Shown here: positions 16,960 through 46,107 of the stretch, one piece after another
How the letters are laid out: every line of letters begins with the position of its first letter
Numbering within the stretch: position 1 is the stretch's first letter
NCBI RefSeq assembly: GCF_053078305.1
Contig: NZ_CP166879.1
Reading direction: 5' to 3' (one strand)
DNA length: 64,000 nucleotides
The notes under the pieces: generated by a model
Database searches by the model: none
What the model was told of the DNA's origin: nothing
The model's input: the letters and a program-made list of their open reading frames with translations, nothing else
Made by a program: the position numbers and the translations under genes

Positions 16960-17223
16960 ATATTGCCGGATAAATTAAACGCCTCTGTCAGAAATGATGG
17001 GGGCGTTTTTATTTTGCGAGCAGCATTCCTGATTTTAAACGTGAACGCCGCTGGAAGAATTAACAGGTATAGAATGGTGTTGGGTGCTTGAGGCTGTCTG
17101 GCGTTAAGCATTCGCGAGGTTCCAGATGGACAAAAGCCCCAGGCGATATTTCTATCAACCTGAGGCCAGCGTTCGAACCTAAGCAATTCGAATGTTAGTC
17201 TCTTCTTTGCAGGGAGGCAAGAC

Positions 17224-17376
17224 ATGCTGACAAAATATGCCCTTGTGGCAATCATCGTACTGTGTTGTACAGTACTGGGATTCACGCTGATGGTAGGCGA
17301 CTCGTTGTGTGAGTTGAGTATCAGAGAACGTGGTATGGAGTTTAAGGCTGTTCTCGCTTACGAATCGAAGAAGTAG
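17224..17376 (+). CDS. Hok/Gef-family type I toxin (50 aa), intact
   Basis: Translation [50 protein letters not shown]: hydrophobic N-terminal helix, conserved SLCE and AYES motifs of the Hok family; GGAGG 9 nt upstream of ATG. Below the track's 60-aa cutoff. Confidence 0.85.
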
Positions 17377-26483: not shown

Positions 26484-26580
26484 GTTATGTGTTCTTTAAA
26501 AATAAGGAAATGTTTGAATTTAGTTGGTAGATTGTTGATGTGGAATAAATTTGTTTAAAAACAGATATGTATGCTTAGTG
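26484..26580 (+). promoter_or_regulatory. CRISPR leader (AT-rich) between cas2 and the first repeat
   Basis: 97-bp AT-rich stretch ending ...AACAGATATGTATGCTTAGT directly before the first repeat. Confidence 0.8.
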
Positions 26581-27579
26581 TGTTCCCCGCGCCAGCGGGG
26601 ATAAACCGGGGGGGCAATAATATGTGCGGCGGATCACCAGGTGTTCCCCGCGCCAGCGGGGATAAACCGTCGGAAAAATGGCTGGCCTCAACGGTGAAAA
26701 CGTGTTCCCCGCGCCAGCGGGGATAAACCGCCAGGGTGAAACTTTTCGCTGACGTAAATAAAGTGTTCCCCGCGCCAGCGGGGATAAACCGACAATCACA
26801 TATACGACGCGAGACGGAGATCGGTGTTCCCCGCGCCAGCGGGGATAAACCGTGATGGGCGAATACAAGCGCTGGCGCAACGAGGTGTTCCCCGCGCCAG
26901 CGGGGATAAACCCGGCATTCTTAACCGGCGCAACAAGGGGGGCGCGTGTTCCCCGCGCCAGCGGGGATAAACCGGTTAACTCCAGGTGGCGCGGCAGTGT
27001 TCAGAAGTGTTCCCCGCGCCAGCGGGGATAAACCGTGCTCTCATTTGTGTCGGCATCACTCGCGTCGGTGTTCCCCGCGCCAGCGGGGATAAACCGTCTG
27101 CCGCGAGCTGGTCTACGCCTACGCCATGGTGTTCCCCGCGCCAGCGGGGATAAACCGACATATGCCACAACCAGGCGAAGAAAAGTGTTCCCCGCGCCAG
27201 CGGGGATAAACCGCCCGTCACCGACGCGCAGTGGCGCTACCGTGAGTGTTCCCCGCGCCAGCGGGGATAAACCGGTCGCTGGGTTATTTTGTGTTGTGGG
27301 GCGATCGTGTTCCCCGCGCCAGCGGGGATAAACCGCTCATATTCGGATTGATCGTGTGTTTCGGTTTGTGTTCCCCGCGCCAGCGGGGATAAACCTGCGT
27401 ATATCTGTTGATGCGCACGGCGTGGCGGGTGTTCCCCGCGCCAGCGGGGATAAACCGAATGATTTAATACCAGACGCAGAGTGCCACACGTGTTCCCCGC
27501 GCCAGCGGGGATAAACCGGGCGCACTGGATGCGATGATGGATATCACTTAGAATTCCCCGCCCCTGCGGTAGAACACCC
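26581..27579 (+). CRISPR. cas-proximal CRISPR array (type I-E): 16 intact repeats plus 1 degenerate terminal repeat, 16 spacers
   Basis: Repeat GTGTTCCCCGCGCCAGCGGGGATAAACCG starting at 26581, 26642, 26702, 26763, 26824, 26885, 26946, 27007, 27068, 27129, 27185, 27246, 27307, 27368, 27429, 27490; degenerate GAATTCCCCGCCCCTGCGGTAGAACACCC at 27551-27579. Confidence 0.97.
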
Positions 27580-33917: not shown

Positions 33918-34943
33918 TTGAGTTTGATAATCTCACTTACCTCCACGGTAAACCGCAAGGCACCGGGCTGCTGAAAGCCAATCCGGAAGACTTTGTGGTG
34001 GTGGAAGATTTGGGCTTTGAGCCTGATGGTGAAGGTGAGCATATTCTGGTTAGAATCCTCAAAAACGGCTGCAATACCCGTTTTGTGGCGGATGCACTGG
34101 CGAAATTCCTGAAAATTCATGCCCGTGAAGTCAGCTTCGCTGGGCAAAAAGACAAACATGCTGTAACGGAACAGTGGTTATGTGCTCGCGTGCCGGGCAA
34201 GGAAATGCCCGATCTGAGCGCCTTTCAATTGGAAGGCTGCCAGGTGCTGGAGTATGCGCGGCACAAGCGCAAGCTGCGTTTAGGGGCGCTGAAAGGTAAC
34301 GCCTTTACCCTGGTTCTGCGCGAAGTGAGCAATCGCGATGACGTTGAACAACGTCTGATCGATATTTGCGTAAAAGGTGTACCGAACTACTTCGGTGCCC
34401 AACGTTTTGGGATTGGCGGTAGCAACTTGCAGGGCGCGCTGCGCTGGGCGCAAACCAATACTCCGGTGCGCGATCGCAATAAACGGAGTTTTTGGTTGTC
34501 GGCAGCCCGCAGTGCGTTGTTTAATCAGATTGTTGCTGAGCGCCTCAAAAAAGCAGACGTTAATCAAGTTGTTGACGGCGATGCGCTACAATTAGCCGGA
34601 CGTGGTAGCTGGTTTGTAGCAACCACCGAAGAACTGGCGGAATTACAGCGTCGCGTCAACGATAAAGAGCTGATGATAACCGCCGCATTGCCGGGCAGTG
34701 GCGAATGGGGAACTCAGCGTGAAGCGTTGGCATTCGAACAAGCAGCGGTCGCCGCAGAAACTGAATTACAAACCTTACTGGTGCGCGAAAAAGTTGAAGC
34801 CGCGCGCAGAGCGATGCTGCTGTATCCGCAACAATTAAGCTGGAACTGGTGGGATGACGTCACCGTAGAGATCCGTTTCTGGCTTCCGGCGGGTAGTTTT
34901 GCAACCAGCGTTGTCAGGGAACTTATCAACACAACAGGTGATT

Positions 34944-34963
<20 letters not shown>
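33914..34963 (+). CDS. truD: tRNA pseudouridine(13) synthase
   Basis: 349-aa ORF; synteny. Confidence 0.9.
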
Positions 34964-36325
<1,362 letters not shown>

Positions 36326-36464
36326 AACGTGAGGAAATACCTGGATTTTTCCTGGTTATTTTGCCGCAGGTCAGCGTATCGTGAACATCTTTTCCAGTGT
36401 TCAGTATGGTGCCTTGCACGGTAATTATGTCACTGGTTATTAACCAATTTTTCCTGGGGGATAA

Positions 36465-37604
36465 ATGAGCGCGGGAAGCCCAAAATTCACCGTTCGCCGC
36501 ATTGCGGCTTTGTCACTGGTTTCGCTATGGCTGGCAGGCTGTTCTGACACTTCAAATCCACCGGCACCGGTCAGCTCCGTTAATGGCAATGCGCCTGCAA
36601 ATACCAATTCTGGTATGTTGATTACGCCGCCGCCGAAAATGGGGACGACGTCTACAGCGCAGCAACCGCAAATTCAGCCGGTACAGCAGCCACAAATTCA
36701 GGCCACTCAACAACCGCAAATCCAGCCAGTGCAGCCAGTAGCTCAGCAGCCGGTACAGATGGAAAACGGACGCATCGTCTATAACCGTCAGTATGGGAAC
36801 ATTCCGAAAGGCAGTTATAGCGGCAGTACCTATACCGTGAAAAAAGGCGACACGCTTTTCTATATCGCCTGGATTACTGGCAACGATTTCCGTGACCTTG
36901 CTCAGCGCAACAATATTCAGGCACCATACGCGCTGAACGTCGGTCAGACCTTACAGGTGGGGAATGCTTCCGGTACGCCAATCACTGGCGGAAATGCCAT
37001 TACCCAGGCCGACGCAGCAGAGCAAGGAGTTGTGATCAAGCCTGCACAAAATTCCACCGTTGCTGTTGCGTCGCAACCGACAATTACGTATTCTGATTCT
37101 TCGGGTGAACAGAGTGCTAACAAAATGTTGCCGAACAACAAGCCAACTGCGACCACGGTCACAGCGCCTGTAACGGTACCAACAGCAAGCACAACCGAGC
37201 CGACTGTCAGCAGTACATCAACCAGTACGCCTATCTCCACCTGGCGCTGGCCGACTGAGGGCAAAGTGATCGAAACCTTTGGCGCTTCTGAGGGGGGCAA
37301 CAAGGGGATTGATATCGCAGGCAGCAAAGGACAGGCAATTATCGCGACCGCAGATGGCCGCGTTGTTTATGCCGGTAACGCGCTGCGCGGCTACGGTAAT
37401 CTGATTATCATCAAACATAATGATGATTACCTGAGTGCCTACGCCCATAACGACACAATGCTGGTCCGGGAACAACAAGAAGTGAAGGCGGGGCAAAAAA
37501 TAGCAACCATGGGTAGCACCGGAACCAGTTCAACACGCTTGCATTTTGAAATTCGTTACAAGGGGAAATCCGTAAACCCGCTGCGTTATTTGCCGCAGCG
37601 ATAA
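36465..37604 (+). CDS. nlpD: Murein hydrolase activator lipoprotein NlpD (LysM + M23 peptidase domains)
   Basis: 379-aa ORF; lipobox LAGCS; Q/P-rich repeat linker; M23-like C-terminus. Confidence 0.95.
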
Positions 37605-37666
37605 ATCGGCGGAACCAGGCTTTTGCTTGAATGTTCCGTCAAGGGATCACGGGTAGGAGCCACCTT

Positions 37667-38659
37667 ATGAGTCAGAATACGCTGAAAGTTCATGATTTAA
37701 ATGAAGATGCGGAATTTGATGAGAACGGAGTTGAGGTTTTTGACGAAAAGGCCTTAGTAGAAGAGGAACCCAGTGATAACGATTTGGCCGAAGAGGAACT
37801 GTTATCGCAGGGAGCCACACAGCGTGTGTTGGACGCGACTCAGCTTTACCTTGGTGAGATTGGTTATTCACCACTGTTAACGGCCGAAGAAGAAGTTTAT
37901 TTTGCGCGTCGCGCACTGCGTGGAGATGTCGCCTCTCGCCGCCGGATGATCGAGAGTAACTTGCGTCTAGTGGTAAAAATTGCCCGCCGTTATGGCAATC
38001 GTGGTCTGGCGTTGCTGGACCTTATCGAAGAGGGCAACCTGGGGCTGATCCGCGCGGTAGAGAAGTTTGACCCGGAACGTGGTTTCCGCTTCTCAACATA
38101 CGCAACCTGGTGGATTCGCCAGACGATTGAACGGGCGATTATGAACCAAACCCGTACTATTCGTTTGCCGATTCACATCGTAAAGGAGCTGAACGTTTAC
38201 CTGCGAACCGCACGTGAGTTGTCCCATAAGCTGGACCATGAACCAAGTGCGGAAGAGATCGCAGAGCAACTGGATAAGCCAGTTGATGACGTCAGCCGTA
38301 TGCTTCGTCTTAACGAGCGCATTACCTCGGTAGACACCCCGCTGGGTGGTGATTCCGAAAAAGCGTTGCTGGACATCCTGGCCGATGAAAAAGAGAACGG
38401 TCCGGAAGATACCACGCAAGATGACGATATGAAGCAGAGCATCGTCAAATGGCTGTTCGAGCTGAACGCCAAACAGCGTGAAGTGCTGGCACGTCGATTC
38501 GGTTTGCTGGGGTACGAAGCGGCAACACTGGAAGATGTAGGTCGTGAAATTGGCCTCACCCGTGAACGTGTTCGCCAGATTCAGGTTGAAGGCCTGCGCC
38601 GTTTGCGCGAAATCCTGCAAACGCAGGGGCTGAATATCGAAGCGCTGTTCCGCGAGTAA
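37667..38659 (+). CDS. rpoS: RNA polymerase sigma factor RpoS (sigma-38), full length
   Basis: 330 aa from [17 protein letters not shown]... with no internal stop or frameshift; the track ORF starts upstream at 37631. Confidence 0.97.
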
Positions 38660-38676
38660 GTAAGCATCTGTCAGAA

Positions 38677-38710
38677 AGGCCAGTCTCAAGCGAGGCTGGC
38701 CTTTTTTCTT
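38677..38710 (+). terminator. Rho-independent terminator after rpoS
   Basis: AGGCCAGTCTC-AAGC-GAGGCTGGCCT stem-loop followed by TTTTTCTTTTG. Confidence 0.8.
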
Positions 38711-38779
38711 TTGTTTGGGAAGCATGTGTTTTTGTCGCCTGGATAAGACACGTCAGCGTCCTACCCGGCAATCAGCATT

Positions 38780-39187
38780 CTATGTGCTCATCATCTTGCG
38801 CACCAGCTGCACAAACAGCTCCTGCTCTTCTGCACTCAAACGCCCCAAAAATTCCTCATCCACGCTGTCACCAATCGGTATCGCCGCAGCAAGTACCTTT
38901 TCTCCTTCGGCAGTCAGCCAGACAAAGCGTCGCCGCTTGTCAGCGGCGTCATGTTCACGTCTGACTAAGCCACGATTCTCCATTCTTGCCAACATTTCTG
39001 CCAACGTTGCTTTGGTGCTGACTGCTGCTTCTATCAGTGCCACCTGTTCGATACCAGGCTTATCAGCAATGGCGCGCATCACCGCATACTGTGGTTTGGT
39101 CAGGTCAGGTAACTCGTGCTGCCAGCGAGCCGTGTGCTGCTGAAAAAGCTGTCGTAACTGATGGAACGCTTTATTTCGTAACGCCAT
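38780..39187 (-). CDS. MarR/SlyA-family transcriptional regulator
   Basis: 135-aa ORF with winged-helix MarR character; divergent from the decarboxylase genes. Confidence 0.8.
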   Translation of the reverse strand: MALRNKAFHQLRQLFQQHTARWQHELPDLTKPQYAVMRAIADKPGIEQVALIEAAVSTKATLAEMLARMENRGLVRREHDAADKRRRFVWLTAEGEKVLAAAIPIGDSVDEEFLGRLSAEEQELFVQLVRKMMST

Positions 39188-39333
39188 GTAAACTCCGGGC
39201 TAATTCTCTGTCGCTATCATAGCGGTTTTTTAGTGACGAAGAAGATGTTGTTACTTTTCAATCCTTGCCGCTGTGGAAATGAAGGAGTATGTTAATAATA
39301 ACGTTCGTATACGAACAATTAAGAGAGTAAGCA

Positions 39334-39927
39334 ATGAAACTGATCGTCGGGATGACAGGGGCTACCGGTGCGCCTCTTGGTGTGGCATTACTGCAAGCGC
39401 TGCGGGAGATGCCGAATGTCGAGACTCATCTGGTGATGTCGAAGTGGGCGAAAACCACCATTGAACTGGAAACGCCTTACAGCGCCCGCGATGTTGCTGC
39501 CCTCGCAGACTTCAGCCATAACCCGGCGGATCAGGCGGCGACCATCTCCTCAGGTTCCTTTCGTACCGACGGCATGATCGTTATTCCGTGCAGTATGAAA
39601 ACGCTCGCCGGTATCCGTGCCGGTTACGCCGATGGCCTGGTAGGGCGCGGGGCGGACGTCGTGCTCAAAGAAGGCCGCAAACTGGTGCTGGTACCGCGTG
39701 AAATGCCGCTTAGCACCATCCATCTCGAAAATATGCTCGCACTTTCACGCATGGGCGTGGCGATGTTGCCGCCGATGCCTGCCTTTTATAACCATCCCGA
39801 AACGGTAGATGACATTGTCCACCATGTGGTAGCCCGCGTGCTGGATCAATTTGGCCTCGAACATCCCCACGCCAGGCGCTGGCAAGGATTGCCGCAGGCC
39901 CGGAATTTTTCTCAGGAGAATGAATAA
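39334..39927 (+). CDS. ecdB: UbiX/Pad1-family flavin prenyltransferase (decarboxylase B subunit)
   Basis: 197-aa ORF; MKLIVGMTGATGAPLGVALLQAL flavoprotein N-terminus. Confidence 0.85.
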   Translation: MKLIVGMTGATGAPLGVALLQALREMPNVETHLVMSKWAKTTIELETPYSARDVAALADFSHNPADQAATISSGSFRTDGMIVIPCSMKTLAGIRAGYADGLVGRGADVVLKEGRKLVLVPREMPLSTIHLENMLALSRMGVAMLPPMPAFYNHPETVDDIVHHVVARVLDQFGLEHPHARRWQGLPQARNFSQENE

Positions 39928-41354
39928 TGGCATTTGATGATTTACGCAGCTTTTTACAGGCGCTTGATGACCACGGCCAGTTACTGAAAATCAGCGAAGA
40001 GGTGAACGCGGAACCGGATCTGGCTGCCGCTGCCAACGCCACCGGGCGTATCGGCGATGGTGCACCGGCGCTGTGGTTTGATAATATTCGCGGTTTTACC
40101 GATGCCCGCGTGGCGATGAATACCATCGGTTCCTGGCAGAACCACGCGATTTCCTTGGGCCTGCCGCCAAACACCCCGGTTAAAAAACAGATTGATGAGT
40201 TTATCCGCCGCTGGGATAACTTCCCGATTGCCCCGGAGCGCCGCGCCAATCCAGCCTGGGCGCAGAACACCGTCGATGGTGACGAGATTAATCTGTTCGA
40301 TATCCTGCCGCTGTTTCGTTTAAACGACGGTGATGGCGGTTTCTATCTCGACAAAGCGTGCGTGGTTTCCCGCGATCCGCTCGACCCGGATAACTTCGGC
40401 AAGCAGAACGTCGGCATCTACCGCATGGAAGTGAAGGGCAAGCGTAAGCTCGGCCTGCAACCGGTGCCGATGCACGATATCGCCCTGCATCTGCATAAAG
40501 CAGAAGAGCGCGGTGAAGATCTACCGATTGCGATCACGCTCGGTAACGATCCGATCATCACGCTGATGGGCGCAACGCCACTGAAATACGATCAATCTGA
40601 GTACGAAATGGCAGGCGCGCTGCGTGAAAGCTCGTACCCGATCGCCACCGCCCCGCTGACCGGTTTTGATGTGCCGTGGGGTTCAGAAGTGATCCTCGAA
40701 GGGGTCATCGAAAGCCGTAAACGCGAAATCGAGGGGCCGTTCGGTGAGTTTACCGGACACTACTCCGGCGGGCGTAACATGACCGTGGTGCGCATCGATA
40801 AAGTCTCTTACCGCACCAGGCCGATTTTCGAATCGCTGTACCTCGGCATGCCGTGGACCGAAATCGACTACCTGATGGGGCCAGCCACCTGTGTGCCGCT
40901 GTATCAGCAACTGAAAGCCGAGTTCCCGGAAGTGCAGGCGGTAAACGCCATGTACACCCACGGCCTGCTGGCGATTATCTCCACCAAAAAACGCTACGGC
41001 GGCTTTGCCCGCGCGGTGGGCCTGCGTGCGATGACCACGCCGCACGGTCTGGGCTACGTAAAGATGGTGATTATGGTCGATGAAGACGTTGACCCGTTCA
41101 ACCTGCCGCAGGTGATGTGGGCGCTCTCCTCGAAAGTAAATCCGGCAGGGGATTTGGTGCAGTTGCCGAATATGTCCGTGCTGGAACTCGACCCAGGCTC
41201 AAGCCCGGCGGGGATCACCGACAAGCTGATTATCGACGCCACCACGCCTGTCGCCCCGGACAACCGTGGTCACTACAGCCAGCCGGTGGTGGATTTGCCG
41301 GAAACCAAAGCCTGGGCTGAAAAACTGACCGCTATGCTGGCCGCACGTAAATAA
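39927..41354 (+). CDS. ecdC: UbiD-family hydroxyaromatic acid decarboxylase (C subunit, YclC-like)
   Basis: 475-aa ORF with UbiD-family character; start overlaps the upstream stop. Confidence 0.85.
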   Translation: MAFDDLRSFLQALDDHGQLLKISEEVNAEPDLAAAANATGRIGDGAPALWFDNIRGFTDARVAMNTIGSWQNHAISLGLPPNTPVKKQIDEFIRRWDNFPIAPERRANPAWAQNTVDGDEINLFDILPLFRLNDGDGGFYLDKACVVSRDPLDPDNFGKQNVGIYRMEVKGKRKLGLQPVPMHDIALHLHKAEERGEDLPIAITLGNDPIITLMGATPLKYDQSEYEMAGALRESSYPIATAPLTGFDVPWGSEVILEGVIESRKREIEGPFGEFTGHYSGGRNMTVVRIDKVSYRTRPIFESLYLGMPWTEIDYLMGPATCVPLYQQLKAEFPEVQAVNAMYTHGLLAIISTKKRYGGFARAVGLRAMTTPHGLGYVKMVIMVDEDVDPFNLPQVMWALSSKVNPAGDLVQLPNMSVLELDPGSSPAGITDKLIIDATTPVAPDNRGHYSQPVVDLPETKAWAEKLTAMLAARK

Positions 41355-41364
41355 GGAGAACAAG

Positions 41365-41601
41365 ATGATTTGTCCACGTTGTGCCGATGAACAGATTGAA
41401 GTGATGGCGAAATCGCCGGTGAAAGATGTCTGGACGGTATATCAGTGCCAGCATTGCCTTTATACCTGGCGCGATACCGAACCGCTGCGCCGTACCAGCC
41501 GCGAACATTATCCCGAAGCGTTCCGCATGACGCAGAAAGATATTGATGACGCGCCAATGGTGCCGAGCATCCCGCCGCTGCTGGCGGAAGGTAAGCGCTA
41601 A
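41365..41601 (+). CDS. ecdD: Small Cys-rich decarboxylase D subunit (YclD-like)
   Basis: 78-aa ORF with CPRC...CQHC zinc-ribbon-like motif; follows the UbiD gene. Confidence 0.75.
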   Translation: MICPRCADEQIEVMAKSPVKDVWTVYQCQHCLYTWRDTEPLRRTSREHYPEAFRMTQKDIDDAPMVPSIPPLLAEGKR

Positions 41602-41609
41602 TAAAAAGT

Positions 41610-41637
41610 GCCGGGTAGTGGCTTTGCTTTACCCGGC
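41610..41637. terminator. Putative bidirectional terminator hairpin between convergent ecdD and pphB
   Basis: GCCGGGTA...TACCCGGC 8-bp perfect stem, A-run upstream and T-rich downstream. Confidence 0.4.
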
Positions 41638-41641
41638 CTCA

Positions 41642-42298
41642 TTACTTTATTTTATAAAATGACAGCCGCCCGCTTTTCGGCGATCCGGTATCAATATAAA
41701 TCTGGTTAGCGAACGTCTGAATGTTATCAAACATCATATGTCCAAATATAAAATAATCAGCGCCGTTTATTTGTTGTAACTCGCCATTAAGCGATTTCTG
41801 CACACGATCAACAGGCCAGAGTAATTCGCTCTCCGCTATTTCTTTACCAAAGAGATATTCACTCCCCGGATAATCTGCATGTGCGATGACATATTTTATG
41901 TTGTCGTTAGTGATTTCAATAATATGTGGAAGGTGATGGAATTTCAGCAACAGATCTGTAGCTTCTTTTTGCTCTGAATCATTTAAATCGAAAAACCAGT
42001 CACCACCGCTGGCAAGCCACATATTGCCATCGCCGGTCGCGAACGCATCCAGCGCCATTGCTTCGTGGTTGCCTTTAACGGAGATAAACCAGGGCTGGTT
42101 TAGCAGGCGCAGGACGTTAAGACTCTCCGGCCCACGATCAATATTATCGCCGACAGAAATAAGTAAGTCGGTTTCGGGGAAAAAAGAGAGTTGATGTAAG
42201 CGGGATTGTAATAACTGATATTCACCATGAATATCACCAACGACCCATATATGGCGATAGTGATGGGCATTGATTTTTTGATAGCGTGTAGATGGCAT
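41642..42298 (-). CDS. pphB: Serine/threonine protein phosphatase 2
   Basis: 218-aa ORF with calcineurin-like metallophosphatase motifs (GDIHG, GNHE). Confidence 0.9.
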   Translation of the reverse strand: MPSTRYQKINAHHYRHIWVVGDIHGEYQLLQSRLHQLSFFPETDLLISVGDNIDRGPESLNVLRLLNQPWFISVKGNHEAMALDAFATGDGNMWLASGGDWFFDLNDSEQKEATDLLLKFHHLPHIIEITNDNIKYVIAHADYPGSEYLFGKEIAESELLWPVDRVQKSLNGELQQINGADYFIFGHMMFDNIQTFANQIYIDTGSPKSGRLSFYKIK

Positions 42299-42403
42299 GG
42301 TTTTACCCTGTAAAATAAGCTTTCCTATTATACAGGGTATTTTTATTTGATTCGTCAGCTGTAGATAATATTCCCGATAGTATTTTTCTACCGGGAATTA
42401 TAA

Positions 42404-44965
42404 TTACACCAGACTCTTCAAGCGATAAATCCACTCCAGCGCCTGACGCGGGGTGAGTGAATCCGGATCGAGGTTTTCCAGTGCCTCGACAGCAGGCGAG
42501 GTTTCTTCCGGTACGGACAGCAAAGACATTTGCGTACCATCCACTTGTGTAGCGGCGGCGTTCGGCGAAATGCTCTCCAGCTCACGCAGTTTCTGCCGCG
42601 CGCGTTTGATCACCTCTTTTGGCACGCCCGCAAGGGCTGCAACCGCCAGGCCGTAGCTTTTGCTCGCCGCGCCATCCTGCACGCTATGCATAAAGGCAAT
42701 GGTGTCGCCGTGCTCCAGTGCATCGAGATGCACGTTGGCGACGCCTTCCATTTTCTCCGGTAACTGGGTCAGCTCGAAATAGTGGGTAGCAAACAGCGTC
42801 AACGCTTTAATCTTATTCGCCAGATTTTCCGCGCACGCCCACGCCAGCGACAGACCATCGTAAGTGGAAGTTCCGCGCCCAATCTCATCCATCAGCACCA
42901 GACTGTACTCGGTGGCGTTATGCAGAATATTAGCGGTTTCGGTCATCTCCACCATAAAGGTTGAACGCCCGGAAGCCAGATCATCCGCTGCCCCTACGCG
43001 GGTAAAGATACGGTCAATCGGGCCAATCTCGACTTTTTGTGCCGGTACATAGCTGCCGATGTAGGCCATCAACGCAATCAGTGCGGTCTGGCGCATATAG
43101 GTACTTTTACCGCCCATGTTCGGGCCGGTAATAATCAACATCCGGCGCTGCGGTGACAGATTCAGCGGGTTGGCGATAAATGGCTCGTTCAGCACCTGTT
43201 CAACCACCGGATGGCGGCCTTCGGTAATGCGAATGCCCGGTTTATCAATAAAGGTCGGGCAGGTGTAGTTCAGGGTATAGGCCCGTTCCGCCAGGTTCAC
43301 CAGCACGTCGAGTTCCGCCAGCGCGCTCGCGCTCTGTTGCAACGCTTCCAGATGCGGCAACAGCAGGTCGAACAACTCTTCATAAAGCTGTTTTTCCAGT
43401 GCCAGTGCTTTGCCTTTTGAGGTGAGAACTTTATCTTCGTACTCTTTTAGCTCTGGAATGATGTAGCGCTCGGCGTTTTTCAGCGTCTGGCGACGCATGT
43501 AGTTGATGGGTGCCAGATGGCTTTGCCCACGGCTGATTTGAATGTAGTAGCCGTGCACCGCATTAAAGCCAACTTTCAGCGTGTCCAGGCCGGTACGTTC
43601 ACGCTCGCGGACTTCCAGACGCTCCAGATAATCGGTCGCGCCGTCAGCCAGCGCGCGCCACTCATCCAGCTCTTCGTTATAGCCCGATGCGATAACACCA
43701 CCGTCGCGTACCAGCACCGGCGGTGTGTCGATGATTGCTCGCTCCAGCAGATCGCGCAGCTCGGCAAACTCGCCCATCTTCTCACGTAGCGCCTGTACCG
43801 GTGCACTATCGACAGTTTCTAACTGCGCACGCAGCTCCGGCAGTTGCTGGAAAGCGTGGCGCATACGGGCCAGATCGCGTGGGCGAGCAGTTCGTAAAGC
43901 CAGACGTGCCAGAATACGTTCCAGGTCGCCGACCTGACGCAGTACCGGCTGTAGCCCGGCGGTGAAATCCTGCAATGCGCCAATAGTTTGCTGGCGCTCA
44001 AGCAACACGCGGGTATCGCGCACTGGCATATGCAGCCAGCGTTTCAGCATACGGCTGCCCATCGGCGTGACGGTGCAGTCGAGCACAGAAGCCAGCGTAT
44101 TTTCCGCACCACCCGCCAGGTTCTGGGTGATTTCCAGATTACGACGCGTCGCGGCATCCATAATGATGCTGTCCTGCTCACGTTCCATGGTGATGGAACG
44201 AATATGCGGCAGAGTCGTACGTTGGGTATCTTTCGCATACTGCAACAGACAACCGGCAGCACAAAGTCCGCGCGGCGCGTTCTCGACGCCAAAACCGACC
44301 AGATCGCGGGTCCCAAATTGCAGATTCAACTGCTGGCGCGCGGTGTCGATTTCAAACTCCCACAGCGGGCGACGGCGCAGGCCGCGACGGCCTTCAATTA
44401 ACGACATTTCAGCAAAATCTTCTGCATACAGCAGTTCCGCAGGATTAGTGCGTTGCAGTTCTGCCGCCATCGTTTCCCGGTCAGCCGGTTCGCTCAGGCG
44501 AAAACGCCCGGAACTGATATCCAGCGTCGCGTAGCCGAAACCTTTGCTGTCCTGCCAGATAGCCGCCAGCAGGTTGTCCTGACGCTCCTGCAACAGGGCT
44601 TCATCGCTGATGGTGCCTGGCGTAACGATACGCACAACTTTGCGCTCAACCGGACCTTTGCTGGTCGCCGGATCGCCAATTTGTTCGCAGATGGCAACGG
44701 ACTCACCCTGATTCACCAGTTTGGCGAGGTAGTTTTCCACCGCATGGTAGGGAATCCCCGCCATCGGGATCGGCTCTCCCGCCGAAGCACCGCGTTTGGT
44801 CAGTGAAATATCCAGCAGTTGCGACGCGCGTTTTGCGTCGTCATAAAACAGTTCATAAAAATCACCCATCCGGTAAAACAGCAGGATCTCGGGATGCTGG
44901 GCTTTCAGCTTGAGATACTGCTGCATCATGGGCGTATGGGCGTCGAAATTTTCTATTGCACTCAT
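42404..44965 (-). CDS. mutS: DNA mismatch repair protein MutS
   Basis: 853-aa ORF; Walker [10 protein letters not shown]; full length. Confidence 0.97.
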
Positions 44966-45211
44966 GGGGTTATGTCCGGTTCCCTGATATTAAATGGGGT
45001 GTGATGGTTTTTATTTTCGTTGTAATCACATAAGGCGCACATGATACCGGAGTTAATCATTTCAGGGGAAGAAGCGAACGGCGAGTTCTTGATGCTGGTT
45101 CCGGGAAAGATGCTGTTTTGCAGCTTTTGCGTGATGCTTATGAAGCAAGTACGCAAAATTGCGTCGGTTGAATAAACCACCTCCTTCAGAGCCATAGTCC
45201 CCTTTCAAATT

Positions 45212-45234
45212 AAGTTGTAGTATAAATACACCTT
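45212..45234 (+). promoter_or_regulatory. Candidate operator/-10 region upstream of ygbA (possible NsrR site)
   Basis: Partial palindrome AAGTTGTAGTATAAATACACCTT overlapping a TATAAAT -10-like hexamer about 25 bp before the start codon; ygbA is known to be NsrR-regulated in K-12. Confidence 0.3.
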
Positions 45235-45251
45235 AAGAGTATGGAGGCAGC

Positions 45252-45596
45252 ATGTCCGGCAAGCGTATCTCTCGTGAAAAACTGACGATTAAAAAAATGA
45301 TCGATCTTTATCAAGCGAAATGCCCGCAGGCGTCAGCGGAGCCGGAGCATTACGACGCGCTGTTTGCCTACGCGCAAAAGCGGCTGGATAAATGTGTGTT
45401 CGGCGAAGAGAAACCAGCCTGTAAGCAGTGTCCGGTGCACTGTTACCAGCCTGCAAAGCGTGAAGAGATGAAACAGATTATGCGTTGGGCCGGGCCGAGA
45501 ATGCTGTGGCGTCATCCGATCTTAACCGTGCGTCATCTCATCGATGACAAGCGTCCGGTGCCGGAGTTGCCAGAAAAATATCGTCCAAAGAAATAA
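45252..45596 (+). CDS. ygbA: Cys-rich small protein YgbA
   Basis: 114-aa ORF; position between mutS and fhlA. Confidence 0.8.
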   Translation: MSGKRISREKLTIKKMIDLYQAKCPQASAEPEHYDALFAYAQKRLDKCVFGEEKPACKQCPVHCYQPAKREEMKQIMRWAGPRMLWRHPILTVRHLIDDKRPVPELPEKYRPKK

Positions 45597-45634
45597 ATCT
45601 GCCGGAGAGCCATACTCTCCGGCAAATAAGGCGT

Positions 45635-46063
45635 TTACGCTTTGGTGGCAATCAGGATGGCTGATGCTTTGATCAATGCAATAACGCGTGAGCCAGTGGT
45701 GAGTTTCATTTCATCCTGACTTTCATTTGTTACCACTGCCACAATTTCAAAACCCGCATCCGTTTTGATATGGACAGTGGCGTTCACTGCGCCTTCGGTG
45801 ATTGTCGACACGCTGCCAGCAAACTGGTTGCGAGCAGAGAATTTCAGTCCACAGTCTTCCGTGGCCAGCGTTACCCACGGGGCTTTAATCAGGGCAATCG
45901 CTTCTTTCCCTTTTGCCAGCCCCAGAGCCTGTTGGCTGCTGTGTGTAACAATCGCCACCAGTTTTGCACCACCTGCCAGCGTCAGTTCTACTTCGTCATT
46001 CACCGCGCCCATTGCTACTGCGCTAACTGTTCCGGTTAATTGATTTCTTGCTGAAACTGCCAT
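45635..46063 (-). CDS. Tandem Mop/TOBE-domain molybdate-binding protein (molbindin-like)
   Basis: 142 aa from the ATG at 46063, preceded by AAGGAGG; two repeats of about 70 aa each (...LTGTVSAV...VELTLAGGAKLVAIVT... / ...FAGSVSTI...VHIKTDAGFEIVAVVT...). Lies 44 bp downstream of the fhlA stop, same strand. Confidence 0.75.
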   Translation of the reverse strand: MAVSARNQLTGTVSAVAMGAVNDEVELTLAGGAKLVAIVTHSSQQALGLAKGKEAIALIKAPWVTLATEDCGLKFSARNQFAGSVSTITEGAVNATVHIKTDAGFEIVAVVTNESQDEMKLTTGSRVIALIKASAILIATKA

Positions 46064-46107
46064 ACTGCCTCCTTTCATTGAATGTTGATCGAGTATAACC
46101 ACATCTG

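What the first reader, a model, noticed from the sequence alone, without database searches (positions are those of the whole stretch)
38713..41641. rpoS-mutS variable segment carries a slyA-like regulator and ecdBCD-type decarboxylase genes instead of the K-12 ygbI-N block
Between the rpoS terminator and pphB there is a roughly 2.9-kb segment encoding a MarR/SlyA-like regulator divergent from a UbiX-like, UbiD-like and small Cys-rich subunit operon (non-oxidative hydroxyarylic acid decarboxylase). This matches the polymorphic mutS-rpoS region described for O157:H7-like and some other E. coli lineages. A REP-like fragment (about 38733-38760) sits at the left junction, and rpoS and mutS are both full length.
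Basis: partly seen in the sequence, partly recalled or inferred. Interest (0 to 1): 0.4.

Follow-up and report, generated by a model that had tools for sequence, protein, structure and literature searches.

The report
Known hosA–ecdBCD segment beside rpoS
This E. coli window carries, between rpoS and pphB, the already well-described regulator-plus-decarboxylase gene set that turns 4-hydroxybenzoate into phenol. K-12 has lost this set, so the finding is correct but ordinary.

Summary
Sequence shared with K-12 stops at window 38705, just after the rpoS terminator, and resumes at 41643, the pphB stop. The ~2.94 kb between holds four intact genes: a MarR-family regulator (38780-39187, -), ecdB (UbiX-like), ecdC (UbiD-like) and ecdD (4-Cys zinc ribbon). 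The K-12 ygbI-N block is absent.

This is the published "2.9-kb" O157:H7-type mutS-rpoS variant. The regulator is HosA, not SlyA: it is 133/135 identical to the HosA crystal structure. Its published 14-bp operator, GTTCGTATACGAAC, sits intact 18 nt upstream of ecdB. Published work shows that 4-hydroxybenzoate releases HosA from this DNA. EcdB/C/D pass the NCBIfam VdcB/C/D cut-offs and keep the catalytic and zinc-binding residues.

Among 5,426 complete E. coli genomes:
- 2,415 carry ecdBCD.
- 804 have the window's direct ecdD-pphB junction.
- 1,602 carry both the ecd and ygb blocks.
- 1,950 have the K-12 junction.

The order nlpD-rpoS-hosA-ecdBCD-mutS recurs in many genera of Enterobacteriaceae. 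The module is therefore ancestral and K-12 lost it.

Minor extras are a second REP-like hairpin at the right junction, a private EcdB A106G allele, and a tract unusually similar to Pseudocitrobacter. Verdict: already known, low interest.

The parts
37667..38659 (+). rpoS, full length (330 aa, E33)
   Evidence: ORF. Identical to the RpoS of strain D8; one difference from K-12 (E33 here, Q33 in K-12).
38673..38706 (+). rpoS intrinsic terminator; homology with K-12 ends at its T-run (left breakpoint about 38705/38706)
   Evidence: Terminator scan. Fold dG -24.5 kcal/mol, z -5.4. Alignment with K-12.
38733..38769 (-). Degenerate REP-like element at the left junction
   Evidence: Alignment with the better REP copy in 07-4299 and Escherichia sp. 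E1V33. Weak hairpin, z -0.9. The comparison with the REP consensus rests on my own knowledge.
38780..39187 (-). hosA, MarR-family repressor that responds to 4-hydroxybenzoate
   Evidence: 133/135 aa identical to PDB 8AGA 'Transcriptional regulator HosA'. Pfam MarR. Below the SlyA cut-off.
39212..39224 (.). Conserved palindrome CGCTATCATAGCG; the minus strand reads TATGAT, a candidate -10 of the hosA promoter (inferred)
   Evidence: The CTATCATAG core is conserved across Enterobacteriaceae in an otherwise diverged spacer. The promoter role is inference only.
39265..39293 (+). Candidate ecd promoter: -35 TTGCCG (39265-39270), 17-nt spacer, -10 TATGTT (39288-39293) (inferred)
   Evidence: Only the TTG of the -35 and TAnnnT of the -10 are conserved, at constant spacing, across genera. 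The consensus promoter scan did not report it.
39303..39316 (.). HosA operator, perfect 14-bp palindrome GTTCGTATACGAAC, 18 nt upstream of the ecdB ATG
   Evidence: Sequence. Matches the published HosA binding-site probe (PMC6261655 supplement). The core TTCG-N4-CGAA is present in 82/82 hosA-ecd spacers and only twice in the 64-kb window.
39334..39927 (+). ecdB, UbiX-type flavin prenyltransferase (makes prFMN); its stop overlaps the ecdC start
   Evidence: NCBIfam VdcB 308.8 bits, cut-off 290. 194/197 identical to PDB 1SBZ. A106G lies at a position that is A in the other 71 of 72 sequences compared.
39927..41354 (+). ecdC, UbiD-type prFMN-dependent (de)carboxylase
   Evidence: NCBIfam VdcC 787.8 bits, cut-off 650. 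Best solved relative is 7AE4 chain A, E 8e-160. N161, R166, E269 and E274 are invariant in 86/86 sequences.
41365..41601 (+). ecdD, zinc-ribbon activator subunit
   Evidence: NCBIfam VdcD 121.2 bits, cut-off 30. Matches ShdD of 7AE4. C3, C6, C28 and C31 are invariant in 85/85 sequences and are the Zn ligands in ShVdcD (PMC8379154).
41607..41639 (.). REP-like hairpin filling the ecdD-pphB junction; probable two-way terminator for the convergent ecdD and pphB (inferred)
   Evidence: Fold dG -18.4 kcal/mol, z -3.0. The same element lies between ecdD and pphB in Escherichia sp. E1V33 and Pseudocitrobacter, where it is closer to the REP consensus.
41642..42298 (-). pphB, right flank; homology with K-12 resumes at 41643
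   Evidence: NCBIfam PRK09968, 473 bits.. Low G+C, 43-44%.
42404..44965 (-). mutS, full length (853 aa)
   Evidence: ORF. One residue differs from K-12.

Best explanation
The segment is the known hosA-ecdBCD locus, also called kpdR-kpdBCD, slyA-pad1-yclCD or the 'HAD operon'. Here it is in the O157:H7-type configuration of the mutS-rpoS polymorphic region.

Proposed mechanism:
1. HosA, a MarR-family dimer, sits on the 14-bp palindrome GTTCGTATACGAAC. The palindrome lies just downstream of the ecd promoter and 18 nt upstream of ecdB, so HosA blocks transcription of ecdBCD.
2. 4-Hydroxybenzoate binds HosA and releases it from the DNA.
3. EcdB, a UbiX-type flavin prenyltransferase, then makes prenylated FMN (prFMN).
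4. EcdC, a UbiD-type enzyme, uses prFMN to decarboxylate 4-hydroxybenzoate reversibly to phenol plus CO2. Vanillate is probably also a substrate.
5. EcdD, a four-cysteine zinc ribbon, binds EcdC and is required to activate it.

Shown here: gene identities, intact reading frames, conserved catalytic and zinc residues, the operator sequence and its conservation, the junctions, and the distribution across genomes.

Taken from the literature: HosA-DNA binding, release by 4-hydroxybenzoate, the requirement for VdcD, and substrate range. These were measured on close or moderately close homologues, not on this strain.

Evolutionary reading: the module is ancestral to Enterobacteriaceae at this position. 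K-12-type strains lost it. The ygbI-N block is a separate indel that the window's lineage lacks.
For: Gene identities:
- NCBIfam VdcB, VdcC and VdcD are all above their curated cut-offs.
- EcdB is 194/197 identical to PDB 1SBZ, the O157:H7 protein.
- EcdC's best solved relative is the Sedimentibacter decarboxylase 7AE4, and EcdD matches its partner ShdD.
- HosA is 133/135 identical to PDB 8AGA.

Operator and regulation:
- The operator at 39303-39316 equals the published HosA binding-site probe.
- It is conserved in 82/82 loci, from E. coli to Vibrio and Shewanella.
- 4-Hydroxybenzoate dissociates HosA from this DNA, with a KD of 4.74 uM for the ligand (PMC6261655).
- HosA represses the HAD operon and itself, and the site lies downstream of the transcription start (Roy & Ranjan 2016 as summarised in bioRxiv 10.1101/2024.04.24.590444).

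Enzyme features:
- VdcD is a Zn ribbon (C3, C6, C28, C31) strictly needed for VdcC activity on 4-hydroxybenzoate and vanillate (PMC8379154).
- These cysteines and EcdC residues N161, R166, E269 and E274 are invariant.

Population and synteny:
- K-12 lacks the segment.
- The ecdD-pphB junction is 100% identical to O157:H7.
- The literature describes exactly this pattern (PMC4209514).
- Synteny nlpD-rpoS-hosA-ecdBCD-mutS holds in Citrobacter, Klebsiella, Enterobacter, Kluyvera, Kosakonia, Leclercia, Atlantibacter, Franconibacter, Mangrovibacter, Cedecea and others.
Against: - No experiment was done on this strain.
- EcdB carries A106G at a position that is alanine in the other 71 of 72 orthologues compared. 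The residue is next to R105, which by my recollection of the UbiX literature corresponds to a phosphate-binding arginine. The effect of the change is unknown.
- The promoter is only a weak consensus match and the promoter scan did not report it.
- The physiological benefit of making phenol from 4-hydroxybenzoate is not established.
- HosA has also been linked to motility in EPEC. I know this from a paper title I recall and did not read here.
Confidence: 0.93

Rival explanations
1. The 2.9-kb segment is a horizontally acquired island inserted into a K-12-like backbone. This is the wording of the early literature ('2.9-kb insertion') and of a 2024 preprint that calls hosA 'horizontally acquired from Shigella dysenteriae'.
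For: - The segment is absent from 55% of complete E. coli genomes.
- REP-like elements lie at both junctions.
- The region is a mosaic, with 91-100% identity per 500 bp against other E. coli.
- The ecdC-ecdD tract is 90-99% identical to Pseudocitrobacter, while hosA and ecdB are 64-89%.
- Literature wording.
Against: - The same gene order between rpoS and mutS is found in dozens of Enterobacteriaceae genera. Presence is therefore the ancestral state and absence the derived one.
- No integrase, transposase, tRNA or direct-repeat scar was seen.
- G+C of 52-60% resembles that of neighbouring mutS.
- Allelic replacement by recombination is likely, but that is not acquisition of the module.
Confidence: 0.07
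2. The enzyme's main physiological substrate is not 4-hydroxybenzoate but another phenolic acid such as protocatechuate, vanillate or gallate. Alternatively, it works in the carboxylating direction (phenol to 4-hydroxybenzoate).
For: - VdcCD homologues accept both 4-hydroxybenzoate and vanillate, and the reaction is reversible (PMC5779730).
Against: - The cognate regulator responds to 4-hydroxybenzoate.
- The protocatechuate decarboxylases AroY (5O3M, 5NY5) are only distant hits, E about 1e-24 to 1e-26, against 8e-160 for the 4-hydroxybenzoate/vanillate enzyme.
- NCBIfam places EcdC in VdcC.
Confidence: 0.2
3. The regulator is a SlyA orthologue whose main job is virulence or motility control, and its position next to the decarboxylase genes is incidental.
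For: - It was historically annotated 'slyA'.
- It belongs to the MarR/SlyA family.
Against: - It scores 29.6 bits against the SlyA model, whose cut-off is 120.
- It is always divergently paired with ecd genes, in 82 loci.
- Its operator sits in front of ecdB in all of those loci.
- The published regulon and ligand are the HAD operon and 4-hydroxybenzoate.
Confidence: 0.05
4. The operon in this window is a decaying, non-functional remnant.
For: - EcdB carries a private substitution, A106G, at an otherwise invariant position, and V145L in the window differs from all three E. coli comparators.
- The module is frequently lost in E. coli.
Against: - All four reading frames are intact and have the annotated lengths.
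- Catalytic and zinc residues are conserved, and the operator is perfect.
- The exact EcdB allele occurs on 55 contigs, so it is a circulating lineage allele.
- Several genera lack ecdB in the module altogether. That fits the housekeeping UbiX supplying prFMN, which is my inference.
Confidence: 0.05

Closest known systems
E. coli O157:H7 (EDL933-type) mutS-rpoS intergenic '2.9-kb' segment: LeClerc et al. 1999, Herbelin et al. 2000 (both cited from the reference list of Ewers 2014, not read), and 'pattern I' of Ewers et al. 2014 (PMC4209514)
   Same: - Same gene set and order: rpoS, hosA, ecdBCD, pphB, mutS.
- No ygbI-N block.
- The ecdD-pphB junction is 100% identical over 501 bp.
   Different: - The window is not O157:H7 itself. 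hosA-ecdBC are 98.0-98.8% identical in nucleotides.
- The window carries a TOBE-domain gene between ygbA and fhlA that O157:H7 lacks.
- The best overall match is strain D8, a river-water isolate: 99.4% over 4.5 kb.
HosA / HAD operon of UPEC UMN026 and EPEC E2348/69 (Roy & Ranjan 2016, known only through the summary; PDB 8AGA; biosensor work in PMC6261655)
   Same: - The regulator is 133/135 identical to 8AGA.
- The operator and its flanking sequence match the published probe.
- The divergent layout is the same.
   Different: - Two conservative C-terminal substitutions in the window relative to 8AGA (V126 for M, S134 for N).
- Those strains carry the ygb block as well (type B); the window does not.
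VdcBCD / ShdBCD / BsdBCD non-oxidative hydroxyarylic acid decarboxylases (Sedimentibacter hydroxybenzoicus VdcCD, PDB 7AE4; Bacillus subtilis BsdBCD)
   Same: - B-C-D gene order.
- UbiX-like, UbiD-like and zinc-ribbon subunits.
- ERE-type catalytic residues and four cysteines conserved.
   Different: - EcdC aligns to ShVdcC over its full length but is clearly diverged (E 8e-160). EcdD is more divergent from ShdD, with a longer linker.
- The regulator here is a MarR-family protein. From my own knowledge, B. subtilis uses the LysR-type BsdA.
UbiX/UbiD of ubiquinone biosynthesis
   Same: Same two enzyme families and the same prFMN chemistry.
   Different: - EcdC scores 174.6 bits against the UbiD equivalog, whose cut-off is 788.
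- It needs a D subunit.
- Its substrate is a free phenolic acid, not a polyprenylated one.
AroY protocatechuate decarboxylase
   Same: UbiD family, prFMN-dependent aromatic acid decarboxylase.
   Different: - Only a distant relative (E about 1e-24 to 1e-26).
- AroY is active without a D subunit (PMC5779730).

Membership tests
Non-oxidative hydroxyarylic acid decarboxylase VdcBCD/EcdBCD | Three clustered genes in the order B-C-D | tested here: met
   ecdB 39334-39927, ecdC 39927-41354, ecdD 41365-41601, all on the + strand. B and C overlap by 1 nt and the C-D gap is 10 nt.
Non-oxidative hydroxyarylic acid decarboxylase VdcBCD/EcdBCD | Each subunit scores above the curated family cut-off | tested here: met
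   VdcB 308.8 bits against 290; VdcC 787.8 against 650; VdcD 121.2 against 30.
Non-oxidative hydroxyarylic acid decarboxylase VdcBCD/EcdBCD | C subunit keeps the UbiD catalytic Glu-Arg-Glu residues and a metal-site Asn | tested here: met
   R166, E269, E274 (motif EGPFGE) and N161 are present and invariant in 86/86 homologues. The mapping of these residues to the ERE triad rests on motif knowledge plus PMC8379154.
Non-oxidative hydroxyarylic acid decarboxylase VdcBCD/EcdBCD | D subunit is a zinc ribbon with two CxxC knuckles | tested here: met
   C3, C6, C28 and C31 are present and invariant in 85/85 sequences. These are the same positions as the Zn ligands of ShVdcD.
Non-oxidative hydroxyarylic acid decarboxylase VdcBCD/EcdBCD | Decarboxylates 4-hydroxybenzoate or vanillate | not testable with these tools
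   Needs an enzyme assay. Activity is shown in the literature for homologues.
HosA (MarR-family repressor responsive to 4-hydroxybenzoate) | Near-identity to characterised HosA | tested here: met
   133/135 aa identical to PDB 8AGA.
HosA (MarR-family repressor responsive to 4-hydroxybenzoate) | Cognate 14-bp palindromic operator in front of the decarboxylase operon | tested here: met
   GTTCGTATACGAAC at 39303-39316 matches the published probe. The core is conserved in 82/82 loci.
HosA (MarR-family repressor responsive to 4-hydroxybenzoate) | 4-Hydroxybenzoate releases the protein from DNA | not testable with these tools
   Shown for UMN026 HosA (PMC6261655).
SlyA (the orthologue) | Scores above the SlyA equivalog cut-off | tested here: not met
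   NF002926 gives 29.6 bits against a cut-off of 120. The solved SlyA structures are only weak hits, E about 1e-7.
O157:H7-type (pattern I) mutS-rpoS configuration | hosA-ecdBCD present, ygbI-N (o454) absent, ecdD directly next to pphB | tested here: met
   pattern definition from PMC4209514.
REP (repetitive extragenic palindrome) elements at the junctions | Imperfect palindrome matching the REP consensus | tested here: inconclusive
   - Left element (38733-38769): degenerate, hairpin z -0.9, but homologous to a better REP in other strains.
- Right element (41607-41639): good hairpin, z -3.0, and the Pseudocitrobacter vendiensis copy reads GCCGGGTGGCGGCTACGCCTTACCCGGCCTAC.
- The consensus comparison is from memory; no REP model was run.
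Horizontally acquired genomic island | Mobility genes, an att or tRNA site, atypical composition, patchy phylogenetic position | tested here: not met
   No mobility genes were seen. G+C resembles mutS. The position is conserved across genera.

The most novel reading that the evidence does not exclude
Two modest points go beyond what I saw in the literature.
1. The HosA operator core TTCG-N4-CGAA and its position about 18 nt upstream of the first structural gene are conserved in all 82 loci examined, out to Vibrio and Shewanella. EcdC is also unusually conserved: 88-99% amino-acid identity, higher than MutS in the same loci. This suggests an ancient, strongly selected 4-hydroxybenzoate response module that E. 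coli lineages nevertheless lose repeatedly.
2. The 3' 1.35 kb of ecdC plus ecdD, and probably pphB, looks exchanged between the Escherichia and Pseudocitrobacter lineages. It is 90-99% identical in nucleotides, against 64-89% for hosA and ecdB and about 86% for mutS. That would extend the known recombination hot spot at mutS-rpoS across genus boundaries.
Probability: 0.5. Interest if true: 0.25.

Novelty: already known. Interest (0 to 1): 0.1.

Why it matters
It matters little as a discovery. The polymorphism was described in 1999-2003. The enzyme family was defined in 2005. The regulator and its operator were characterised in 2016, and crystal structures exist for HosA, for EcdB and for a homologous CD complex.

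The practical value is correct annotation:
- The regulator should be called HosA, not SlyA.
- The operon is a 4-hydroxybenzoate-inducible phenol-forming decarboxylase.
- The locus is a typing marker that places this strain in the ygb-negative, ecd-positive class, which makes up 15% of complete E. coli genomes.

The cross-genus synteny also corrects the recurring claim that the module is a pathogen-specific horizontal acquisition.

Tried and rejected
- **Original papers not available.** I tried to read LeClerc 1999 (PMC94221) and Herbelin 2000 (PMC110980). Neither is held, so they are cited only through the reference list and text of Ewers 2014. Roy & Ranjan 2016 is known only through the summary in a preprint.
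- **Promoter scan.** The consensus scan found no ecd or hosA promoter. The promoter I propose rests on cross-genus conservation only.
- **Repeat finder.** The repeat finder reported only a partial palindrome in the spacer. I read the 14-bp palindrome directly from the sequence.
- **Rfam.** The gathering-threshold search found nothing in the segment; the only hit in the window is sok at 17082-17239.
- **False literature hit.** PMC13253662 matched 'HosA' only through the author name Hosaka.
- **SlyA orthology:** rejected.
- **Genomic-island reading:** rejected on synteny and composition.
- **Pseudogene reading:** rejected.
- **Sequencing error as the cause of EcdB A106G:** rejected, because the exact protein occurs on 55 contigs.
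- **Structure prediction and fold search:** not run, because solved structures of the same or homologous proteins exist.
- **Remaining genomes:** I did not resolve the ~1,070 genomes that fit none of the three junction types. They presumably include the B2-type insert, as in Nissle 1917.


Full report
**1. What is in the sequence**

The ORF list gives the following genes:
- rpoS, 37667-38659 (+). The longer ORF starting at 37631 contains the annotated 330-aa protein.
- A 135-aa MarR-family gene, 38780-39187 (-).
- A 197-aa gene, 39334-39927 (+).
- A 475-aa gene, 39927-41354 (+), whose start overlaps the previous stop by 1 nt.
- A 78-aa gene, 41365-41601 (+).
- pphB, 41642-42298 (-).
- mutS, 42404-44965 (-, 853 aa).

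BLAST against K-12 MG1655 aligns window 34803-38705 and 41643-45625 and nothing in between. In K-12 that gap holds ygbN-M-L-otnK-ltnD-ygbI. The K-12-absent segment is therefore 38706-41642, 2,937 bp. RpoS differs from K-12 only at residue 33 (E here, Q in K-12) and MutS only at residue 19, so both are full length.

**2. The junctions**

Left junction:
- Identity with K-12 ends in the T-run of the rpoS terminator. The terminator folds at dG -24.5 kcal/mol, z -5.4.
It spans 38733-38769 and is degenerate here (hairpin z -0.9).
- It aligns with a better REP copy at the same place in strain 07-4299 and in Escherichia sp. E1V33.

Right junction:
- The 40 bp between the ecdD stop and the pphB stop are filled by a second REP-like hairpin, 41607-41639 (dG -18.4 kcal/mol, z -3.0).
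- On the minus strand it is followed by a T-run. It probably terminates the convergent pphB and ecd transcripts (inference).
- The same element lies between ecdD and pphB in Escherichia sp. E1V33 and in Pseudocitrobacter, where it is closer to the REP consensus. This junction is therefore old, not a recent deletion scar.

**3. What the genes are**

| Gene | Family evidence | Closest solved structure |
|---|---|---|
| ecdB | VdcB, 308.8 bits (cut-off 290) | 194/197 identical to PDB 1SBZ, the O157:H7 protein |
| ecdC | VdcC, 787.8 bits (cut-off 650) | Sedimentibacter decarboxylase 7AE4 chain A, E 8e-160 |
| ecdD | VdcD, 121.2 bits (cut-off 30) | ShdD, the partner chain of 7AE4 |
| regulator | MarR family | 133/135 identical to PDB 8AGA, 'Transcriptional regulator HosA' |

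- Pfam agrees: Flavoprotein for ecdB, and UbiD_N, UbiD and UbiD_C for ecdC.
- The regulator scores only 29.6 bits on the SlyA model, whose cut-off is 120. 'SlyA-like' is therefore true only at the family level. The gene is hosA.
- EcdC keeps N161, R166, E269 and E274 (motif EGPFGE), and EcdD keeps C3, C6, C28 and C31.
- All of these residues are invariant in the 85-86 homologues I collected.
- The four cysteines are the zinc ligands of ShVdcD. That subunit is strictly required for VdcC activity on 4-hydroxybenzoate and vanillate (PMC8379154).

**4. Regulation**

The 146-bp hosA-ecdB spacer contains a perfect 14-bp palindrome, GTTCGTATACGAAC, at 39303-39316, 18 nt upstream of the ecdB ATG.

Match to published work:
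- The HosA binding-site probe in the supplement of Cao et al. 2018 (PMC6261655) carries the same palindrome with the same natural flanks. The extracted text shows one extra T.
- That paper shows that 4-hydroxybenzoate releases HosA from this DNA and reports a KD of 4.74 uM for the ligand.
- A 2024 preprint summarises Roy & Ranjan 2016. According to it, HosA represses the decarboxylase operon and itself, 4-hydroxybenzoate derepresses, and the palindrome lies downstream of the transcription start.

Cross-genus comparison:
- I aligned the spacer from 22 taxa and scanned all 82 loci.
- The core TTCG-N4-CGAA is present in 82/82 loci, at a median of 18 nt from the start codon.
- The rest of the spacer is largely unalignable beyond the family.
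- The core occurs only twice in the whole 64-kb window.

Other conserved spacer features:
- A TTG (-35), 17 nt, then TAnnnT (-10) arrangement at 39265-39293. This would put the operator at about +3 to +16.
- A CTATCATAG palindrome at 39212-39224. It reads TATGAT on the hosA strand and is a candidate hosA -10.
- Both promoter assignments are inference; the consensus scan did not report them.
- Klebsiella, Enterobacter, Kluyvera, Vibrio and Shewanella have a second operator-like copy upstream that E. coli lacks.

**5. Distribution in E. coli**

Among 5,426 complete genomes, ecdBCD is present in 2,415 (44.5%). The junction types are:

| Type | Arrangement | Genomes |
|---|---|---|
| A (window, O157:H7, D8) | ecdD directly next to pphB | 804 (14.8%) |
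| B (e.g. 07-4299) | ecd block and ygb block side by side | 1,602 |
| C (K-12) | rpoS directly next to ygbN | 1,950 |
| Unassigned | presumably includes the B2-type insert, e.g. Nissle 1917 | about 1,070 |

This matches the four PCR patterns of Ewers et al. 2014. Their o454-negative 'pattern I' is the EDL933 type, and that paper traces the '2.9-kb insertion' to LeClerc et al. 1999.

The window is not O157:H7 itself:
- The junction piece is 100% identical to O157:H7, but hosA-ecdBC are 98.0-98.8% identical.
- Identity in 500-bp steps swings between 95% and 100%.
- The window has a TOBE-domain gene between ygbA and fhlA that O157:H7 and K-12 lack.
- The closest complete genome is the river isolate D8, at 99.4% over 4.5 kb.

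**6. Insertion or loss?**

A scan of one genome per species with EcdC returned 80 loci. Mapping the window's proteins onto them shows:
- The order nlpD-rpoS-hosA-ecdBCD-(0-3 kb)-mutS holds in Citrobacter, Klebsiella, Enterobacter, Kluyvera, Kosakonia, Leclercia, Lelliottia, Atlantibacter, Franconibacter, Mangrovibacter, Cedecea, Pluralibacter, Pseudocitrobacter and others.
- In Salmonella arizonae and diarizonae and in Phytobacter the module is inverted relative to rpoS.
- In Rahnella, Pantoea, Vibrio and Shewanella the module exists elsewhere in the genome.
- G+C of the segment (52-60%) resembles mutS, whereas pphB is the compositional outlier at 43-44%.
- No mobility genes are present.

The module is therefore ancestral at this position. 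K-12-type genomes have lost it, and the ygb block is a separate indel. The preprint's claim that hosA was acquired from Shigella is not supported by this synteny.

**7. Side observations**

- **EcdC conservation.** EcdC is 95-99% identical in amino acids across Enterobacteriaceae and 88-89% identical to Vibrio and Shewanella. In the same loci MutS is 88-96%, NlpD 71-89% and HosA 51-81%.
- **Modules without ecdB.** Eleven of the 80 loci show hosA next to ecdC-ecdD with no ecdB hit. That fits the housekeeping UbiX supplying prFMN (inference).
- **Private EcdB allele.** The window's EcdB has A106G in the invariant GRAADVVLKE motif; the other 71 of 72 sequences have A. The exact protein occurs on 55 E. 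coli contigs, so it is a real lineage allele of unknown effect.
- **Pseudocitrobacter tract.** From about 40000 to 41600 (most of ecdC plus ecdD, and to a lesser degree pphB) the window is 90-99% identical in nucleotides to Pseudocitrobacter. hosA and ecdB are 64-89% and mutS about 86%. Citrobacter and Klebsiella are 81-90% over the same tract. This suggests an old exchange across genera at this recombination hot spot.

**8. Verdict**

The finding is accurate and its interpretation is supported. The locus is fully described in the literature: the polymorphism, the enzyme family, the regulator with its operator and ligand, and the structures. Novelty is 'already known' and interest is low. No experiment was done on this strain, so inducibility and enzyme activity remain inferred from near-identical or homologous proteins.

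Noticed in passing
window 45635-46102 (-): A TOBE-domain (molybdenum-pterin-binding-like) gene lies between ygbA and fhlA. It is present in the window, D8 and S1-ZIM-01-A but absent from K-12 and O157:H7 (alignment gap 45626-46106). This is a second small indel polymorphism in the same neighbourhood, probably the 'c3292' of Ewers 2014. It shows the window combines an O157-type rpoS-pphB junction with a non-O157 state here.
   Followed up: partly
window 39649-39651 (EcdB codon 106); also codon 145: EcdB has A106G in the invariant GRAADVVLKE motif; the other 71 of 72 sequences compared have A. V145L also differs from all three E. coli comparators. The exact protein occurs on 55 E. coli contigs, so this is a lineage allele and not a sequencing error. 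Its functional effect is unknown.
   Followed up: partly
window about 40000-41600 (ecdC 3' part and ecdD), extending into pphB; loci L009-L011: This tract is 90-99% identical in nucleotides to Pseudocitrobacter, whereas hosA and ecdB are 64-89% and mutS about 86%. Citrobacter and Klebsiella are 81-90% over the same tract. Among the 80 loci, pphB was found only in Escherichia and Pseudocitrobacter, in the Citrobacter-labelled MAG contig L007, and weakly in Klebsiella spallanzanii. This suggests an exchange across genera.
   Followed up: partly
loci L041, L055, L056, L064, L068, L069, L075, L076, L081, L083, L085: In these genera (Superficieibacter, Pluralibacter, Cedecea, Chimaeribacter, Mangrovibacter phragmitis, Siccibacter, Rouxiella, some Rahnella, Erwinia) the tblastn map shows hosA next to ecdC-ecdD with no ecdB hit. 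The HosA operator then sits in front of ecdC.
   Followed up: partly
hosA-ecd spacers of L025, L038, L046, L055, L077, L086 versus window 39250-39265: Klebsiella, Enterobacter, Kluyvera, Pluralibacter, Vibrio and Shewanella carry a second operator-like copy (CGTATACGAAC or GTTCGTnnACGAAC) upstream of the -35 region. E. coli has no recognisable second site there.
   Followed up: partly
locus L006 (E. coli S1-ZIM-01-A) 6264-7808: This is another variant of the region. Its pphB is only about 86% identical to the window's, and an extra tetratricopeptide-repeat gene lies between pphB and mutS.
   Followed up: no
window 41642-42298 (pphB): pphB is the compositional outlier of the region, at 43-44% G+C against 52-60% for its neighbours. 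It differs from K-12 PphB at 10 residues, far more than rpoS or mutS do.
   Followed up: no
window 17082-17239 (+): An Rfam sok antitoxin RNA (111.7 bits) lies in the interval that in strain D8 holds a Hok/Gef family gene, between cysH and cas3.
   Followed up: no
window about 26580-27460, and upstream cas genes: A type I-E CRISPR array (29-nt repeat GTGTTCCCCGCGCCAGCGGGGATAAACCG, period 61) lies downstream of a cas3-cas2 operon. In the closest genome, D8, cas2 is annotated as frameshifted. This was not checked in the window.
   Followed up: no
window 36663-36725 (nlpD): A 24-nt tandem repeat (2.6 copies) encodes the QQPQIQP(V/A) repeats of NlpD. The annotated nlpD length differs between strains (1089 nt in D8, 1095 nt in K-12, O157:H7 and 07-4299).
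   Followed up: no
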